49,477 bases of DNA from a virus (Duplodnaviria > Heunggongvirae > Uroviricota > Caudoviricetes), in IMG/VR virus record IMGVR_UViG_2541047944_000004, positions 1 to 49,477 of that record; one strand, given 5' to 3'. This document shows, in pieces, positions 1-17,049 of the stretch. The notes beneath the pieces are model-generated. The model saw only the letters and a program-made list of their open reading frames with translations, searched no databases and was not told where the DNA came from. Made by a program: the position numbers and the translations under genes. The first letter of the stretch is position 1. The number at the start of each line of letters is the position of its first letter.

Positions 1-1236
1 CTACGATAACCGCGCATTCAACATAGCTACCTGTTCGTCGTTCATGTCATCAATCCACATACCGTAAATTTCATACACCATCTGCGCAGTTTCATGCCCC
101 ATCTGGCTGGCTATAAATGCCGGGTTCGCTCCTGCCGTCAACAGCCAGCAGGCAAAAGTATGTCGCGTATGGTACGGATTACGGCGGCGAATACCAGCAC
201 GTTTTACAGCTGCATTCCATCTCGCACCCAAACTGCTTACCGAGTAATAAGGTTTCTGTTTTCCGTTACACATCCTGGGCATGAAAACAAAATGCAGTTT
301 TTGCTTTTCGGTTCTGCCGTACTCCCGATGATAAAAAGTGATTTCGCTTTTGCGATGATGCCCGGTCAGTTTGTATTGCTCTTTCAGTGCTTCAAGAGCA
401 GGCTGTAGTAGTGTTACCGTCCGGATCCCCGCATTTGTTTTTGGGGGACCGAACATATCAAGTATCGTCAGGTTTCTTCTGACATTCACAATTCCCTTCT
501 CGAAATCCACATCCTCCCACGCCAGAGCAGCCAGTTCCCCGTGACGAAGCCCGGAGTAAACGGCAAATTTCCACAAGTTCTGGCTCTGTCCTTTTTCACT
601 TTCCATTAATGCATTGAATTCTGTTTTAGATAACGGATCAGGCTTTATTCTGTTTCGCTGTAATTTTTTTACTCCTTCAAATGGTTTGGTTGATATAAAT
701 CCCGACTGATATGCAAAACGTAACAACGAACAGAGCAGGGCGATATAGTTATCAACTGTGCGCACAGTTCTTCCTTTTTTGTTGGATCTTGGATTATCCA
801 GGTAAAGCGTTTCTCCATGCAGCAGTTCATTCCGATAGTTTAAGATATCGCTATAACGAATATGTGATATTGGGGTGCTCTCAAAAATTATTATTCTGAG
901 TGTTTTTAATTGTGATTTCGTTTTCTTCATTGTGTTTGTTGTTAACTCTGTCTCTTTAATTTTTGTCCAGATATCACAAAGCTCCCCGAACGTTTTTATG
1001 ATCCTCGTTGTCACCATTTTTGCCCCAGTGCTGGACTGGGGAAAACGCCTTAAATACTCAAATTCACCGGAGTTGATTTCATGAACTATCAACGCTCTTA
1101 AATTCCCGGCCTTTTTAATGTTACTGTTAGTTACCTCCCAGCCTTTCAGTGTTTCCCGACATCGTTTTCCTCGAAACATGAACCAGATGCGAATGTATTT
1201 ACCCCGAATCTCGACACCTGTTGGTAATTTAGACAT
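1..1236 (-). CDS. int: Tyrosine recombinase / phage integrase
   Basis: 411-aa ORF; C-terminal catalytic region with HTRHT...Y motif typical of lambda-family integrases; stop codon at window position 1-3. Confidence 0.9.
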   Translation of the reverse strand: MSKLPTGVEIRGKYIRIWFMFRGKRCRETLKGWEVTNSNIKKAGNLRALIVHEINSGEFEYLRRFPQSSTGAKMVTTRIIKTFGELCDIWTKIKETELTTNTMKKTKSQLKTLRIIIFESTPISHIRYSDILNYRNELLHGETLYLDNPRSNKKGRTVRTVDNYIALLCSLLRFAYQSGFISTKPFEGVKKLQRNRIKPDPLSKTEFNALMESEKGQSQNLWKFAVYSGLRHGELAALAWEDVDFEKGIVNVRRNLTILDMFGPPKTNAGIRTVTLLQPALEALKEQYKLTGHHRKSEITFYHREYGRTEKQKLHFVFMPRMCNGKQKPYYSVSSLGARWNAAVKRAGIRRRNPYHTRHTFACWLLTAGANPAFIASQMGHETAQMVYEIYGMWIDDMNDEQVAMLNARLS

Positions 1237-1237
1237 A

Positions 1238-1453
1238 TCATGAGTCTTTGATAAACTGATTTATCTTCGGATAGTTGTACCAGATAATCCCTCGCTTGCT
1301 GTCTGGCTTACCTAAAGGAGATACTCGTTTGAAGTGAAAGCCTTCCACCCAGCAATTCTGACGGTATGCTTCAATTTGTCTGGCCCCCAGACCAGTACGA
1401 AGCATCAGACCGTATTCAACCATCCACTCTTCATTAAAAATCACTTGTGCCAT
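1238..1453 (-). CDS. xis: Excisionase-like protein
   Basis: Small ORF immediately upstream of int, stop overlaps int start; sequence ([35 protein letters not shown]...) matches my recollection of enterobacterial prophage excisionases; start chosen at ATG 1453 with AGGTG upstream. Confidence 0.6.
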
Positions 1454-1552
1454 CGCATCACCTCTGGCGGGCGACAATATTAGACTGAAATTGACGCCCG
1501 ACGTTGATTATTAATAATCAGCTATGAAGTTATAATTTGGATATAATGCAAC

Positions 1553-1741
1553 TCACGAGGGCAGAAGTTTCTCGCAATTAAAATTTATCAGCTTTACTTT
1601 CTGCTCTCTGGAAACGCCTGCTTCTTTTTTCCCCGAGAGCATTTTTTCGCATTCCGATTTGGTTAACTTTGTTTTTGAGTACCTTGTCCAGTTAGTAGGA
1701 GTGCCACCTTCCTTTTCAATAGTGGCGGTAATTTTATACAT
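1553..1741 (-). CDS. Hypothetical small protein (62 aa)
   Basis: ORF with strong GGAGG RBS 5 nt upstream of ATG at 1741; overlaps last codons of upstream gene. Confidence 0.5.
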   Translation of the reverse strand: MYKITATIEKEGGTPTNWTRYSKTKLTKSECEKMLSGKKEAGVSREQKVKLINFNCEKLLPS

Positions 1742-1964
1742 GAACACCTCCATTATTATTTCCAGTGGTTCGTTTATTCCATCGTTCGAGTGCTTCTTTT
1801 TCACTTCCACCATAGCCGGTTCGGGATTCGCATCCGTTACACTTCGCGCGGTAATATCCTGAAATGGCTTTCACCGTTACTGATGGACAACCACAAAACG
1901 GACATGGTTTGACTTTTGTGTATCGCACTGGTTTTTCTCCTGTGAGCTTTGTGGCTGCGCTCAT
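1734..1964 (-). CDS. Lar-family restriction alleviation-like zinc-ribbon protein
   Basis: Motif CPFCGC...CNGC in a 76-aa protein; start ATG overlaps exo stop (ATGA). Confidence 0.55.
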
Positions 1965-2641
1965 TTCCATTGCTCCCCAAATACAAAACCAATTTCAGCC
2001 AGTGCCTCGTCCATTTTTTCGATGAATTCTGGCACCATCTCGTCAAAACTCGCCATGTACTTTTCATCCCGCTCAACCACGACATAATGCAGGCCTTCAC
2101 GCTTCATACGCGGGTCATAGTTGGCAAAGTACCAGGCATCTTTTTGCGTCACCCACATGCTGTACTGCACCTGGGCCATGTAAGCCGACTTTATGGCCCC
2201 GAAACCACCGAGCCGGAACTTCATGAAATCCCGGGAGGTAAACGGGCATTTCAGTTCAAGGCCGTTACCGTCGTTGCATAAGCCATCGGGAGAGCAGGCG
2301 GTGCGCATAGTCTCGTCACGATAGATGATCGGGGATTCAGTAACATTCACGCCGGAAATGAACTCAAACAGGGCTCTGGCGTCGTTCTCGTACTGTTTTC
2401 CCCAGGCCAGTGCTTTAGCGTTAACTTCCGGGGTCACTCCGGTGCAGACCTCAGCCAGCAGGGTGTGGAAGTAGGACATTTTCATGTCAGGCCATTTCTT
2501 TCCTGAGCGGGGTTTTGCTATCACGTTGTGAACTTCTGAAGCTGTGATGACGCCGAGCCGTAATTTGTGCCACGCATCATCCCCTTGTTTAACAGTTCTC
2601 ACGTCGATTCCTGTACGTTGCAGGATAATGTCAGGAGTCAT
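1961..2641 (-). CDS. exo: Lambda exonuclease (Red-alpha)
   Basis: 226-aa translation near-identical to my recollection of lambda Exo ([15 protein letters not shown]...FVFGEQW). Confidence 0.95.
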
Positions 2642-3417
2642 GCTGCCACCTTCTGCTCTGCGGCTTTCCGTTTCAGGAATCCAAGAGTTTTCACTGCTTC
2701 GGTCTGCGTCAGTTCTGATGATGCGCGAATGTCGCGGCGAAGTATCTGGGAACAGAGCGGCAATAAGTCGTCATCCCATGTTTTATCCAGGGCGATCAGC
2801 AGAGCGTTAATCTCCTGCATGGTTTCATCGTTAACCGGAGTGATGTCGCGTTCCGGCTGACTTTCTGATGCGGTATTTTCGACAATGCGCTCGGCTTCAT
2901 CCTTGTCATAGATACCAGCAAATCCGAAGGCTAGACGGGCACACTGAATCATGGCTTTATGCCGTAACATCCGTTTGGGGTGCGACTGCCACGGCCCCGT
3001 AACTTCTTTGCCTTCGCGGGTTTTGAATGGTTCGCGGCGGCACTCATCCATCCACTCGGTAACGCAGATCGGATGATTGCGGTCCTTGCGGTAAATCCGG
3101 CATGTACAGGATTCATTGTCCTGCTCAAAGTCCATACCATCAAACTGCTGGTTTTCATTGATGATGCGGGACCAGCCATCAACGCCCACCACCGGAACGA
3201 TACCATTCTGCTTATCAGGGAAGGCGTAAATCTCTTTCGTCCACGGATTAAGACCGTACTGGTTGGCGACGATCAGCAGCGCGATGAATTGCGCATCGCT
3301 GGCATTGCCTTTAAATGCTGTCTGGCGAAGAGTGGCGAGCAGTTCCTGCGGGTCGACAGTATCCATGCCGACACGTTCAGCCAGCTTCCCGGCCAGCGTT
3401 GCGAGTGCTGTACTCAT
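2638..3417 (-). CDS. bet: Recombinase Bet (Red-beta, single-strand annealing protein)
   Basis: 259-aa translation near-identical to recollected lambda Bet ([18 protein letters not shown]...KAAEQKVAA); ATGA overlap with exo. Confidence 0.95.
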
Positions 3418-3422
3418 TCGTT

Positions 3423-3722
3423 TTATACCTCTGAATCAATATCAACCTGGTGACGCGCAATGGTTTCAACCATGTACCGGATGTGCTCCGCCACGCGTTC
3501 CTGAAATTCAACATCGTCATCAAATGCGCGACTGATTGCCTGTTTGCTGGCACCGTGGCGTTGCAAATGGTCGATGCAGAGCGATTCAAACAGGTGCTGG
3601 GGCAGACCTTTTTCCAGGTCGTCCGCCAGTTCCGTTTCTTTTTCTTCGCGAACGATCTTCTGGTAGTGGCGTGACCATGCCAGCTCTTCAATGCGATCAA
3701 AAATCGGGCATGTGCTCATCAT
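3423..3722 (-). CDS. gam: Gam, RecBCD inhibitor
   Basis: Translation matches C-terminal 98 aa of lambda Gam ([29 protein letters not shown]...HQVDIDSEV); start may be at internal Met because upstream gene overlaps. Confidence 0.85.
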
Positions 3723-5712
3723 CTGTTACCCCAAAATTTTCAAGTTTGTTTGCGATCATCATTGCAATACCCGGAATTAATGGCGCTGAGGCTATACCTG
3801 CAGGATTCGCACATAAACCGTAAACCGCCGCAATCACCACTTGTCTTTTCCAGTCGAGTTTTTCTAATGATGAAGCTGCTGCTTCGCCAGTTTCATCACT
3901 GCAATCGCGATGCGGATCGCTGCCAGCATTCTCCTTGTGTGGATGTTCAGCGCCTTCCATTTTCTCCGGCTCATTTTCCCGAACTTCAACCTGATTCTCG
4001 TCATCGAATGTTTCCTGATATATTGCGTCGCCCATCACCGCACCACAGTCAGGGCAGTTATCCCCGCTAGACTGACCGCAGGCATTGCAAACTTTTTCTA
4101 CTTCCTGTTGCGCCACTGGTTCAGGCTGTTTCGTTTCTGGCTCGTTTTGTAACGCATTTGGGCTGTTTTGTTCCGCTTTCTGGTCGTTCTGTTCCGATTC
4201 TTGTTGGTTCTGGTTCACTGAATCGCGGGTTTCAATCCCCTTCACCCATTTCGGATCATTCGGGTCGCTAATCCCCTCAACAAATTCACCACGTGATGCA
4301 GCAAGCAACTTATCGGCATCGACAGGATTTTTTGATGGAATGTTTTTCCGGGCTTCATGGAGTTCTGCCCGCAGTTCTTGATATTTCGCATCAACAGAAT
4401 TTACCTGTGACTGAGCATCCAGCGGCTGCGTGTCCTGATGATGTTCAGTTGCGTCCGGTTCCATTGTTTCAGCCTCTCCCTGTTCATCTGCCGTTGTTCC
4501 AGATGGTTGCGGTTTTTCTTCATCATCCTGTTTTCCTTCTTCTGTTACACGCTGCGGCATCGGGGCAGAGGAACGACCGCAGGCAATATCCACGATTTCC
4601 GGATCAGGGTTGGCATGATCAGTTTCAGTCAGTACTTTGTTCAGATATTCAGTGACGTGCGCGGGGGTGACCTCGATCCCAATTGGTGCTTCTTTCACGG
4701 ACGCAACCACGATGGCGCGGGAATAATCCAGCCCGCCAGGCATGGTGATGAATTTGTCGCGGAAAACAGAAAAGGGCGGTTTATTTTCAGCGATAATTTC
4801 CTCAATGCGTTTAGCGTGTGCCGGATGAAGGTTATAGATGTCCACGTCCATTGAACGGGCAAGTACGCCAGTGGCTACATCGCGTGCCAGTGACGTCAGA
4901 TCGTGGACGAAACCTTCGCCGCGATCGGTGAGGTTCCCGCCGCCAGCATTAGCACCGGAAGCCGTGCGAGTGATGCGTGAAACACGATTTCCTTTCATCC
5001 ACTCTTTTGTCAGCAGACCGCGATCGGTGTAGTCTGCGTCCAGGTATGCTTCGAAAAAAGCAGTCATCAGCCCCAGACTTGAATTGCCTGGATTAGGGAA
5101 AACTTTGTCAGTATCACGAACCAGTCTGTGAAGATCGCGAATCTCCAGCAGGTCGAGCAGGCTGGTTTTGTGGGAAACAGCCAGGGCAGTAACAGCTGGT
5201 AGTTCTTCAGCCCGTGCAATATGTAATGTCTGGAGTTCGTCGCGTGAAACGTGCGTTACCGGTTTTTCGCTGCCGTGTTGAGCAAGCCAGCGAATGGGCA
5301 GCTCTTGGCCAGAAATCGGGAGTAGCATATTCTCCTCAATCTCAGTCATGTCTTCGCCATTAACATTGGTATTGTCAGTGCTGGCTGGTTTGTCCTGCGC
5401 AGAGGATGAGGGCGCGATAAATACCATTGTGATGCCATCTTCCCCGCCTTTTTCGTAACGGTTGCAGAATTCCGTATCAAATACGCCTTCTGGTGGAAGG
5501 TCATCAACAACGGGCAAATTGACGCGAACAGGTTTTTTAAAGTCATCTTCATCGTAGCCAGCATCGTCAATCGCAACAGCACCACGGGAGATGGCAATGG
5601 ATAATTTTTTCGCTTCAGCCCAGTAGAAACCGCCTTTAATACCGAGACGTTTTCTTACTTTGTCATTTTTTGCTTCGTAATACAGTGGGTAAACTTGTTT
5701 ATCGGTGCTCAT
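3697..5712 (-). CDS. Large acidic hypothetical protein (671 aa) with CxxC...CxxC zinc-ribbon and C-terminal hydrophobic segment
   Basis: Long uninterrupted ORF in early-left operon upstream of gam; low-complexity Q/E/D/N-rich centre; CNACG...CPDCG motif; hydrophobic C-terminus. Confidence 0.6.
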
Positions 5713-5811
5713 TGTTTTTTAACCTCAACTCAGATTAAAATTACTGCGAGTGATGAATAAATGTCCCAGGTTCTTCACTCAGGCCTGCACAGTGTGCAGG
5801 CTTTCTTTTTT

Positions 5812-6087
5812 TCAGATTTCACCTTTTAATTTCATTGCAATCAGAGTTGCCAGAAATTCGGCTTTTTTTTCTGCTGGCAGATTCTTTCCTATGTGCACCA
5901 GACACATTTTTTTAACACCATCGTTAAGTGTTTTAACGTTGCCTGATGGACCGTCGATATCAACCACAGTGAATGGGGTTTCTTTATTTTCTGTCTTAAT
6001 CACGTAGCCAATACGCTTTCCTTCTAGGCTGACTTCGTGAACAATGTCATCAGTAGTAACAACAGTGGCTTCATAACTGGTAATCAT
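5812..6087 (-). CDS. Hypothetical early-left protein (91 aa)
   Basis: ATG at 6087 preceded by AAGGAG RBS; position corresponds to Ea10/YdfE region of lambdoid early-left operons. Confidence 0.55.
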   Translation of the reverse strand: MITSYEATVVTTDDIVHEVSLEGKRIGYVIKTENKETPFTVVDIDGPSGNVKTLNDGVKKMCLVHIGKNLPAEKKAEFLATLIAMKLKGEI

Positions 6088-6161
6088 GTTTTTCTCCTTA
6101 ATTAAGGTTGAGCGAATCCCTGCCATTGCTGGCATAAATTCAGTTTCGGATAGTCAGTTAA

Positions 6162-6338
6162 TTAAAGTTCGTGTGCCATCTGGTCTTTTTCGGCACAGAT
6201 TTCACTACAATATTTTTTCATTTCCGTCGTTGGTATAACTCCACGCATGAAATGAAGTGGTCTTGTAATGATTTTGCTTTCTTCAATTTCTTTATTGCAA
6301 AGGTGATAAGCACATTTTATTTTCTTAGTCATTACCAT
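6162..6338 (-). CDS. Small zinc-ribbon protein (58 aa), possibly YdfD-like
   Basis: ORF below the 60-aa track cutoff found by hand: [20 protein letters not shown]...[17 protein letters not shown]; Cys-x-x-His-x-Cys...Cys-x-x-x-Cys pattern; sits downstream of DicF/DicB-like genes. Confidence 0.4.
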
Positions 6339-6553
6339 GACTCCGCCTTTACAGGTAAACCATCACGACCGAGGAAGACTTTAATCATGCAGTCAGAAAT
6401 GCATGTTTTTGTAGTCAGGCTACGAATATAAAGTTTTCGCTTTTTAATATTGTTTGCCGAGGCGATATATGTCCGACCTTCATGAAGAACATAATCGCCA
6501 GGGGTCACACACTGACGTGGTATTTCATCAGTTCCGAAGTGATGAGCAATCAT
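6332..6553 (-). CDS. Putative DicB-like cell-division inhibitor (73 aa)
   Basis: First gene downstream of DicF-like sRNA (position of dicB in Qin); GGAGA RBS before ATG at 6553; weak similarity to recollected DicB around NNIKKRK. Confidence 0.4.
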
Positions 6554-6715
6554 AATTATCTCCATTTTTACAAATGAATTTTGTCGATGCGGTGCCTGGT
6601 GCCTCCAGGTGACGTTAACCAGTTAACAATTAACGCCGGATAATCCACCCATAACACTGATGCTTTTAACTGTGCCGCGTGCGCTTAGCCGCATTCACCG
6701 CATCACAAAATTCAC

Positions 6716-16895: not shown

Positions 16896-16971
<76 letters not shown>

Positions 16972-16974
16972 TAT

Positions 16975-17049
<75 letters not shown>

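What the first reader, a model, noticed from the sequence alone, without database searches (positions are those of the whole stretch)
3697..5712. Large acidic 671-aa protein of unknown function embedded in the Red recombination operon
In lambda the position immediately upstream of gam holds the small kil gene; here a 2-kb ORF occupies it and overlaps the gam start. The protein has a very acidic low-complexity central region (Q/E/D/N-rich), a CxxC...CxxC zinc-ribbon-like motif (CNACG...CPDCG) and a hydrophobic C-terminal stretch. It is too long and well-placed to be spurious, yet I do not recognise the family. An early host-takeover or anti-defence role is plausible.
Basis: partly seen in the sequence, partly recalled or inferred. 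Interest (0 to 1): 0.5.

Follow-up and report, generated by a model that had tools for sequence, protein, structure and literature searches.

The report
Nuclease-less RecE protein beside lambda Red
The 671-residue protein belongs to a known family: it is the N-terminal part of the Rac prophage RecE protein (a part whose function is still unknown), it lacks the exonuclease domain, it ends in a short conserved helical tail, and it sits directly in front of lambda-type gam-bet-exo.

Summary
The family is recognisable, however. Residues 1-610 are the N-terminal region of Rac RecE (exonuclease VIII): Pfam PF06630, 82% identity to K-12 RecE residues 40-587, and 97.5% DNA identity to full-length recE alleles. 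Homology stops at K-12 residue 585/586, just before the nuclease domain. The nuclease is replaced by a 61-residue tail that overlaps the gam start.

The tail is not a scar. Its 42-residue core (DWKRQ...QGLCANPA-type motif...ENFG) has dN/dS of 0.05-0.12 at near-saturated dS. The same motif closes many distant nuclease-less relatives (21-45% identity) and also occurs in tiny stand-alone phage proteins.

The same N-terminal module is elsewhere fused to a PD-(D/E)XK nuclease or to a DEDD 3'-5' exonuclease.

The window is a Rac-like prophage in which recE(586-866)+recT was replaced by tail+gam+bet+exo. The exact protein is already in GenBank as "exodeoxyribonuclease 8", a misnomer. NCBI's automatic annotation pipeline (PGAP) marks a 99% identical DNA copy as a pseudogene, which is probably also wrong.

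The function is unknown, as it is in the literature for the RecE N-terminus. My best guess is a non-catalytic adaptor. Interest is modest.

The parts
3697..5712 (-). Whole ORF, 671 aa: a nuclease-less RecE-family protein. It is identical to GenBank EQZ27309.1.
3883..5712 (-). Residues 1-610, homologous to the N-terminal region of Rac RecE (K-12 RecE residues ~40-585). DNA is 97.5% identical over nt 1-1839 to full-length recE alleles. Homology ends after ...SDETGE.
4543..5712 (-). Residues 1-390: confidently folded domain(s) in the AF2 model (pLDDT mostly above 90). No solved or viral-model structural relative was found.
5149..5559 (-). Residues 52-188: match to Pfam PF06630 (Exonuc_VIII, the N-terminal RecE family domain; this is not the nuclease).
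4543..5037 (-). Residues 226-390: the core that is conserved in even the most distant relatives (GLLTKEW...[13 protein letters not shown]...PGGLDYSRA...LTETDH...IACGRSS). dN/dS is about 0.1. It matches phrog_26058.
4228..4392 (-). Residues 441-495: conserved helical segment (KYQELRAEL...[21 protein letters not shown]). dN/dS is 0.02-0.04.
4045..4089 (-). Residues 542-556: CNACG-x7-CPDCG, a candidate zinc ribbon inside the acidic disordered region.
   Evidence: the first CxxC is lost in the L004 variant
3700..3882 (-). Residues 611-671: the replacement C-terminus that stands where the RecE nuclease domain would be.
3730..3855 (-). Residues 620-661: conserved tail mini-domain [42 protein letters not shown], predicted as a helix-turn-helix hairpin. 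dN/dS is 0.05-0.12. The motif is shared with distant nuclease-less relatives and with small stand-alone phage proteins.
3423..3722 (-). gam (host-nuclease inhibitor). Its start overlaps the end of the ORF by 23-26 nt. The same overlap, or an ATGA overlap, is present in all 69 E. coli-type loci that carry gam directly after the tail ORF.
2638..3417 (-). bet (RecT-family annealase).
1961..2641 (-). exo (YqaJ/lambda exonuclease family), the only recognisable recombination nuclease in this operon.
5812..6565 (-). Rac-type upstream neighbours: racC (5812-6135, 95.6% to K-12 RacC), ydaE (6162-6338, 73%) and kilR (6332-6565, 94.5%). They place the ORF at the recE position of a Rac-like prophage.

Best explanation
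SHOWN. The gene is a natural nuclease-less allele of recE. A Rac-like prophage has kept the first 610 codons of recE; its int, xis, rcbA, ralR, racC and kilR products are about 95-100% identical to those of K-12 Rac. The segment recE(586-866)+recT has been exchanged for a cassette made of a 61-codon tail plus gam-bet-exo. The tail is a conserved 42-residue helical mini-domain (consensus L-T-Y-x-Q-Q-L-T-I-A-A-L-Q-G-L-C-A-N-P-A...D-D-I-P-x-M-A). It is under strong purifying selection. It also closes a whole subfamily of nuclease-less RecE-like proteins. The ORF is therefore a functional gene, not a pseudogene, and it is not an exonuclease.

INFERRED (about 0.35 on its own). The protein works as a non-catalytic adaptor or scaffold. 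The acidic folded N-terminal module (residues 1-390), plus the helical and zinc-ribbon segments on disordered acidic linkers, would bind protein partners rather than DNA. It would do in trans for the Red/Gam end-processing machinery what the same region does in cis in full-length RecE, which reviews report to enhance linear-linear recombination. The tail would replace the tetramer-forming nuclease domain as the oligomerisation or docking element. Overlap with the gam start would couple its translation to that of Gam.
For: Identity: PF06630 E=7e-37. NCBIfam exodeoxyribonuclease VIII model aligned over residues 1-614 to model positions 1-600 of 877. PHROG 607. 82% identity to K-12 RecE residues 40-587. 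97.5% DNA identity to full-length recE over nt 1-1839. The first 225 codons are nucleotide-identical to a 1048-aa recE allele.

No nuclease: there is no PF12684 or PF16473 hit, whereas relatives carry one of them after the same ...SDETGE junction.

Tail is functional: dN/dS is 0.05-0.12 at dS 0.5-1.9 between four lineages. The motif sits at the extreme C-terminus of about 20 distant nuclease-less clusters, and A628, A629, G632, C634, N636 and P637 are invariant. ORFs are intact in most of 80 viral contigs.

Context: Rac-like flanks. gam overlaps the ORF end in all 69 E. coli-type loci with gam directly downstream.

Non-catalytic: no invariant polar residue is found in the core across 21 or 60 relatives. 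Every segment is acidic.

[quoted passage not shown] Nuclease-less 'RecE-2' proteins have been noted in lambdoid Rec modules (PMC12315714).

Against: Distant tail-bearing relatives (L068-L086) and the DEDD-fused form (L090) sit next to xis-int with no gam, annealase or exonuclease nearby. The module therefore does not need Red or RecT partners, which weakens the reading as a recombination accessory acting in trans.

From memory, not checked here: Fu et al. 2012 concluded that the RecE N-terminal region acts as part of the same polypeptide.

About 6 of about 77 loci not cut by a contig end carry frameshifted copies, so the gene is dispensable in some prophages.

PGAP treats a 99% identical DNA copy as a pseudogene.

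Tail pLDDT is only 59-73.
Confidence: 0.55

Rival explanations
1. Anti-defence or host-takeover effector unrelated to recombination. The RecE N-terminal module plus tail would bind and neutralise or redirect a host factor, such as a nuclease, a defence sensor or a replisome or repair component. Phages would simply couple it to whatever end-processing nuclease they carry.
For: The gene lies in the early-left operon among known host-interaction genes (kilR, racC, gam, ralR/Lar). RacC is reported to block a retron toxin (bioRxiv 10.1101/2020.06.22.160242).

The protein is strongly acidic with long disordered acidic linkers, as are many protein- or DNA-mimicking inhibitors; that comparison rests on general knowledge.

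Distant relatives and the DEDD fusion occur without any annealase or Gam.

The tail motif recurs in tiny stand-alone early phage proteins of unknown function (phrog_2201).
Against: No homology or structural similarity to any known anti-defence protein was found. PADLOC gave no hit, but it holds only defence-system models. No supporting literature was found. Full-length RecE has a documented recombination phenotype that depends on this region.
Confidence: 0.3
2. Non-functional remnant. The ORF would be the leftover 5' part of recE after a module swap, reading through by chance into unrelated sequence. This is the sense of the PGAP annotation 'incomplete; missing C-terminus'.
For: PGAP flags a 99% identical DNA copy and the L004 and L006 copies as pseudogenes. 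The NCBIfam score of 1178.5 is below the 1269 cut-off. A few related loci are frameshifted or interrupted by an IS element.
Against: Tail dN/dS is 0.05-0.12 with dS up to 1.9. The tail motif is conserved at 21-45% overall identity in many genera-level relatives. ORFs are intact in most loci, including copies that PGAP calls pseudogenes. The 690-aa Stx-phage form is found on more than 1000 contigs and is annotated as a normal CDS. The overlap with the gam start is conserved.
Confidence: 0.08
3. A bona fide exodeoxyribonuclease VIII, as GenBank names it: a second 5'-3' exonuclease working beside lambda Exo.
For: Database names only.
Against: Homology to RecE ends at K-12 residue 585. The nuclease domain (K-12 564/606-866 according to PMC11611040; PF12684; PDB 3H4R) is absent. 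The only PDB sequence match of the family profile comes from nuclease-bearing members.
Confidence: 0.02
4. A membrane-anchored protein, with the hydrophobic C-terminus acting as a tail anchor.
For: The best 19-residue Kyte-Doolittle mean is 1.62 at residues 625-643, about the usual threshold.
Against: The homologous tails carry Q, D and E within the stretch and score only 0.4-1.1. The stretch contains N and P and is modelled as a helix-turn-helix. The rest of the protein is a 70-kDa acidic soluble-type polypeptide.
Confidence: 0.05

Closest known systems
RecE (exonuclease VIII) of the E. coli Rac prophage, 866 aa
   Same: Residues 48-612 are 82% identical to K-12 RecE residues 40-587. The upstream neighbours kilR-ydaE-racC are the same. 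The acidic linkers and the CxxC...CxxC motif are the same. The function of this region is unknown in RecE too (PMC11611040).
   Different: It lacks the C-terminal PD-(D/E)XK exonuclease domain and is not followed by recT. It carries a 61-residue tail instead and is followed by gam-bet-exo.
Nuclease-less RecE-like proteins of lambdoid early-left operons ('RecE-2' in PMC12315714; phrog_26058, unknown function)
   Same: No nuclease domain. The core at residues 226-390 is homologous (phrog_26058 E=2.3e-32). The C-terminal QGLCANPA motif is the same. The location in the early-left operon is the same.
   Different: The distant members have a different middle domain (REIEIA...WSD) in place of the zinc-ribbon and acidic region. 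They are not adjacent to gam. I could not verify that the authors' RecE-2 set is the same family, because no supplement is held.
The 682-690-aa 'RecE family exodeoxyribonuclease' of Stx phages (Shigella phage 75/02 Stx gp06, POCJ13, and the E. coli O104:H4 Stx2a prophage protein WP_001271588.1)
   Same: Same architecture and same tail, with gam overlapping the stop and bet-exo downstream.
   Different: Only 58-63% identical. The tail ends GGDKS with an ATGA overlap rather than [10 protein letters not shown] with a 25-nt overlap. The N-terminal part is not a recent copy of Rac recE.
RecE N-terminal module fused to a DEDD (Rv2179c-like, PF16473) 3'-5' exonuclease, 814 aa (PPompW-type prophages)
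   Same: The N-terminal ~610 residues are 93-94% identical, up to the same junction.
   Different: The C-terminus is a 3'-5' exonuclease. The gene is followed directly by xis-int, with no annealase or gam.
Lambda Kil
   Same: It lies upstream of gam in the early-left operon.
   Different: No homology. The Rac-type kilR is present elsewhere in the window (6332-6565).

Membership tests
RecE / exodeoxyribonuclease VIII | N-terminal RecE region (Pfam PF06630 Exonuc_VIII) | tested here: met
   E=6.9e-37, 127.7 bits against a cut-off of 25; 82% identity to K-12 RecE residues 40-587
RecE / exodeoxyribonuclease VIII | C-terminal PD-(D/E)XK exonuclease domain (PF12684; PDB 3H4R) | tested here: not met
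   No hit in the ORF, whereas P0016, L003 and 16 of 60 relatives have one. The alignment to K-12 RecE stops at residue 587 and DNA homology stops after codon 610.
RecE / exodeoxyribonuclease VIII | Score at or above the curated cut-off of the NCBIfam equivalog NF007259 | tested here: not met
   1178.5 bits against a cut-off of 1269; only model positions 1-600 of 877 are matched
RecE / exodeoxyribonuclease VIII | Operon partner recT immediately downstream | tested here: not met
   gam, bet and exo follow instead; compare K-12 and L003
RecE / exodeoxyribonuclease VIII | 5'-3' dsDNA exonuclease activity | not testable with these tools
   Needs biochemistry; predicted to be absent
Nuclease-less RecE-like proteins (phrog_26058; possibly 'RecE-2') | Homologous conserved core without any nuclease domain | tested here: met
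   phrog_26058 E=2.3e-32 over residues 246-407; core aligned in A3; no nuclease Pfam hit
Nuclease-less RecE-like proteins (phrog_26058; possibly 'RecE-2') | C-terminal QQL-x-x-AA-x-QGLCANPA ... P-x-MA motif within about 35-45 residues of the stop | tested here: met
   The window variant reads [17 protein letters not shown]...IPGIAMMIA.
Nuclease-less RecE-like proteins (phrog_26058; possibly 'RecE-2') | Middle domain REIEIA..LNDLLSGRT...EIH..A..ILD.WSD seen in the distant members | tested here: not met
   It is absent here. The window protein has the Rac-RecE type helical segment, acidic linkers and CxxC pair instead.
Nuclease-less RecE-like proteins (phrog_26058; possibly 'RecE-2') | Identity with the protein set named RecE-2 by the authors of PMC12315714 | not testable with these tools
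   No supplementary tables are held
Zinc-ribbon proteins | Two CxxC pairs forming a zinc knuckle or ribbon | tested here: inconclusive
   CNAC-x7-CPDC is present and highly conserved: non-synonymous divergence is low (dN 0.14-0.20) where synonymous sites are saturated. Pfam DZR (E=0.026) and Zn_ribbon_3 (E=0.36) are below their cut-offs. Model pLDDT is about 55-64. The first CxxC is lost in the L004 variant.
Tail-anchored / membrane proteins | A conserved hydrophobic transmembrane helix of about 20 residues | tested here: not met
   The best 19-residue Kyte-Doolittle mean is 1.62 here but 0.4-1.1 in homologous tails, which contain D, E and Q
Known anti-phage defence proteins (PADLOC) | Match to any model | tested here: not met
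   No family at E<=0.01

The most novel reading that the evidence does not exclude
[quoted passage not shown] Phages would combine it at one fixed junction with interchangeable output domains: a 5'-3' nuclease, a 3'-5' nuclease, or the QGLCANPA hairpin. In its nuclease-less form it would act on a host factor, as an anti-nuclease, an anti-defence protein or a device that captures the host repair machinery, rather than on recombination itself. The QGLCANPA hairpin, shared with many 60-100-residue early phage proteins, would be a portable docking or oligomerisation peptide for that same host target.
Probability: 0.2. Interest if true: 0.65.

Novelty: new member of a known kind. Interest (0 to 1): 0.33.

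Why it matters
RecE/RecT is a standard tool of recombineering, yet two thirds of RecE (residues 1-587) has no known function. Reviews say only that the full-length protein enhances linear-linear recombination.

This locus, and the commoner Stx-phage version found in the O104:H4 outbreak lineage, are natural separation-of-function alleles. They carry the N-terminal module alone, kept under selection, capped by a conserved mini-domain and co-expressed with Gam/Bet/Exo. That makes the question directly testable: add the ORF to Red recombineering strains, or delete it or its tail in the prophage.

The result also corrects two annotations. 'Exodeoxyribonuclease VIII' is wrong because there is no nuclease domain. 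'Pseudogene' is probably wrong because the ORF is intact and selected.

It is not a new kind of system, and nothing here reveals the mechanism.

Tried and rejected

2. Profile search of PDB sequences. It found only the RecE nuclease domain 3H4R, through the nuclease-bearing members of the alignment.

3. Searching for the tail in other protein contexts. tblastn against phages found it only in the same gene. A profile search returned fragments of RecE-like proteins and weak hits to small stand-alone proteins (phrog_2201 and phrog_37111, unknown function). The neighbourhoods of two of these are runs of small unannotated early genes and told me nothing.

4. The tail as a Gam-specific partner. I rejected this as a general rule, because distant tail-bearing relatives have no gam.

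5. Transmembrane anchor. Rejected.

6. Enzyme in the conserved core. No invariant polar or catalytic residues are found across relatives.

7. Defence-system membership. There are no PADLOC hits.

8. Literature. The first search was swamped by the word 'receptor'. Later searches found no functional study of the RecE N-terminus and nothing linking it to anti-defence. Fu et al. 2012 is not held.

9. Supplementary tables of the RecE-2 paper are not held.
Full report
**Observation**

The window has a 671-codon ORF at 3697..5712 on the minus strand. A GAGG lies about 10 nt upstream of its ATG. Its stop lies 23-26 nt inside gam. Downstream on the same strand are Gam (Pfam E=5.5e-56), a RecT-family Bet and a YqaJ-family Exo. 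After these come Lar/RalR, a DUF1187 protein, xis and int.

The protein has pI 4.6 and net charge -55. Residues 391-618 have net charge -36 and are rich in E, D and Q. There are four cysteines arranged CNAC-x7-CPDC at 542-556, and a hydrophobic stretch at 625-655.

**Identity**

The family is recognisable.
- Pfam PF06630 (Exonuc_VIII) matches residues 52-188 at E=7e-37.
- The NCBIfam equivalog for exodeoxyribonuclease VIII aligns residues 1-614 to model positions 1-600 of 877. It scores 1178.5 bits, just under its 1269 cut-off.
- PHROG 607 matches at E=2e-248.
- BLASTP against K-12 RecE gives 82% identity over residues 48-612 against 40-587.
- At the DNA level, nt 1-1839 are up to 97.5% identical to full-length recE alleles. 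The first 225 codons are nucleotide-identical to a 1048-aa allele (L003).
- The exact protein is GenBank EQZ27309.1, 'exodeoxyribonuclease 8', from E. coli UMEA 3585-1.

**What is missing**

Homology to RecE ends after ...SDETGE, at window residue 610 (K-12 residue 585). This is a few residues before position 588, where the truncated 'E588' nuclease used in recombineering starts, going by its name. The review PMC11611040 places the nuclease domain at residues 564-866.

No PD-(D/E)XK domain (PF12684) is present. The same N-terminal module, up to the same junction, is found with four alternative C-termini:
- the K-12-type PD-(D/E)XK nuclease (891 aa, P0016);
- a longer PD-(D/E)XK variant (1048 aa, L003);
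- a DEDD Rv2179c-like 3'-5' exonuclease (814 aa, P0092);
- the short tail seen here (657-671 aa).

**Genomic history**

The flanking genes are Rac genes. Identities to K-12 Rac are intR 98%, xisR 100%, rcbA 95%, ralR 95%, racC 96%, kilR 94.5% and ydaE 73%. The window is therefore a Rac-like prophage in which recE(586-866)+recT has been replaced by tail+gam+bet+exo. The ORF sits at the recE position, not at a vacated kil position.

**The tail is a real domain, not a scar**

- The 42-residue core ([42 protein letters not shown]) is conserved in Stx phages 75/02 and POCJ13, in the O104:H4 Stx2a prophage and in a third lineage (L004). Their N-terminal parts are only 58-63% identical to the window protein or are mosaic.
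- Pairwise Nei-Gojobori estimates give dN/dS of 0.05-0.12 at dS 0.5-1.9.
- In a segment-wise analysis the folded parts (1-100, 226-390, 441-495) and the tail have dN/dS of 0.02-0.1. In the zinc-ribbon segment dN is low (0.14-0.20), but dS is saturated, so no reliable ratio can be given. The linkers have dN/dS of 0.3-1.0.
- In an exhaustive search of 1.84 billion cluster representatives, only 238 clusters matched at E<=0.001.
- About 20 distant nuclease-less members (21-45% identity, 490-735 aa) end in the same motif, with consensus LTYxQQLTIAALQGLCANPA.....DDIPxMA. A628, A629, G632, C634, N636 and P637 are invariant. This is the most conserved element of the subfamily. These proteins correspond to phrog_26058, of unknown function.
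- A profile of the tail also finds 59-102-residue stand-alone phage proteins carrying ...AAMQGLCANPA... (phrog_2201 and phrog_37111, unknown function). They are encoded in runs of small early genes.
- The homologous tails contain acidic and polar residues and have low hydropathy. The hydrophobicity of the window's tail therefore does not indicate a conserved membrane anchor.
- AF2 models the tail as helix-turn-helix with pLDDT 59-73.

**Is the gene disrupted in relatives?**

- Among 80 IMG/VR loci plus the annotated E. coli loci, most carry intact ORFs of 620-730 aa. The motif lies 34-43 residues from the stop.
- About six loci are frameshifted and about five are N-terminally shortened. Many loci are near-duplicates of one another.
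- The copies that PGAP flags as 'incomplete; missing C-terminus' (L002, L004) are intact ORFs.
- The tail sequence is present in 106 of 5426 complete E. coli genomes. DNA similar to the N-terminal part is present in 4733 of them.
- The Stx-type 690-aa protein occurs on more than 1000 contigs.

**Context across relatives**

- In 69 of the 70 E. coli-type loci that carry gam (54% identity or more), gam follows directly with a 4-nt (ATGA) or a roughly 25-nt overlap. The one exception is L006, where an IS element separates the two.
- In 56 of the 70, bet and exo follow gam. In 14 they were not detected. Some of these carry an AAA-family ATPase instead (L004 and L006); in others the contig ends soon after gam.
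- In the distant loci (L068-L086) there is no gam, bet or exo. The gene is followed by small ORFs, xis and int, and only small ORFs lie upstream.
- The DEDD-fused form is also followed directly by xis-int.

The module is thus not obligatorily tied to an annealase or to Gam.

**Structure and function**

The AF2 model (60-sequence alignment) is confident for residues 1-390. It is disordered over 399-437 and 493-612. The helical segment at 439-473 is modelled moderately well, and the zinc-ribbon region is only weakly confident.

On the literature side, reviews call the RecE N-terminus a 'domain of unknown function' or 'unclear'. [quoted passage not shown] A 2025 survey of lambdoid Rec modules notes 'RecE-2' proteins that lack a nuclease domain and have unknown roles (PMC12315714). 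No study links this region to anti-defence.

**Best explanation and rivals**

Shown: this is a functional, nuclease-less RecE-family gene created by a module swap at the domain boundary of recE. It is capped by a conserved mini-domain that defines an older nuclease-less subfamily.

Inferred: it acts as a non-catalytic adaptor for the phage's DNA-end machinery. The tail would replace the tetramer-forming nuclease domain as an oligomerisation or docking element, and translation would be coupled to gam.

The main rival is a host-directed or anti-defence effector (0.3). The acidic disordered make-up, the early-left neighbourhood and the occurrence without recombination partners favour it. The absence of any supporting homology, and the known recombination phenotype of full-length RecE, count against it.

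The pseudogene, true exonuclease and membrane-anchor readings are largely excluded by the data above.

**Verdict**

The interpretation 'unrecognised family' is refuted, but 'function unknown' stands. This is a new member of a known kind and is already in the databases under a misleading name. It has modest interest, mainly as a natural separation-of-function allele for the long-unexplained RecE N-terminus.

Noticed in passing
window 1-6565: The left arm of the window is a Rac-type prophage. Identities to K-12 Rac are intR 98%, xisR 100%, rcbA 95%, ralR 95%, racC 96%, ydaE 73% and kilR 94.5%. A lambda-type gam-bet-exo cassette has been swapped in for recE(586-866)+recT.
   Followed up: yes
window 5783-5801 (minus strand), between racC and the ORF: A perfect 8-bp stem with a 3-nt loop (GCCTGCAC ACT GTGCAGGC) lies just after the racC stop. 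No T-run follows. It could be a processing or attenuation element or a weak terminator within the early-left transcript.
   Followed up: no
P0092; L090 4001-6445: The same RecE N-terminal module is fused to a DEDD (Rv2179c-like) 3'-5' exonuclease in PPompW-type prophages. No annealase or gam is nearby. The polarity of this nuclease is opposite to that of RecE.
   Followed up: partly
L004 4142-5541; L006 5698-7061: In some E. coli prophages, tail-type RecE plus gam is followed by a 365-aa 'AAA family ATPase' instead of bet-exo. In L006 an ISSso6 element is inserted between the tail ORF and gam.
   Followed up: no
L004 2206-4164: This tail-type variant has lost the first CxxC of the zinc-ribbon motif (PCNQTGEDNCPDCG). 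The ribbon may therefore be dispensable in some lineages.
   Followed up: no
L002 5001-6836; L004 2206-3880: PGAP annotates intact, selected ORFs as pseudogenes ('missing C-terminus') because they fall short of the full-length RecE model. Other records name the same proteins 'exodeoxyribonuclease VIII' although they lack the nuclease domain.
   Followed up: yes
P0290-P0298; L087 4241-4453; L088 2893-3102: There is a family of 59-102-residue stand-alone phage proteins (phrog_2201 and phrog_37111, unknown function) that share the AA(L/M)QG(L/M)CANPA helical motif with the tail. They are encoded in runs of small early genes.
   Followed up: partly
window 6162-6338: The YdaE-like 58-aa protein gives a near-threshold match to the Rtr1/RPAP2 zinc-finger family (31.7 bits against a cut-off of 33).
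   Followed up: no
window 16896-17049: Two adjacent tRNA genes (Thr-TGT and Gly-TCC) lie inside the prophage.
   Followed up: no
A3 alignment; window residues C378 and C634: Two cysteines are invariant or nearly invariant across the nuclease-less subfamily. C378 lies at the end of the core (IACG) and C634 lies in the tail (GLCANP). Whether they approach each other in the folded protein was not examined.
   Followed up: no
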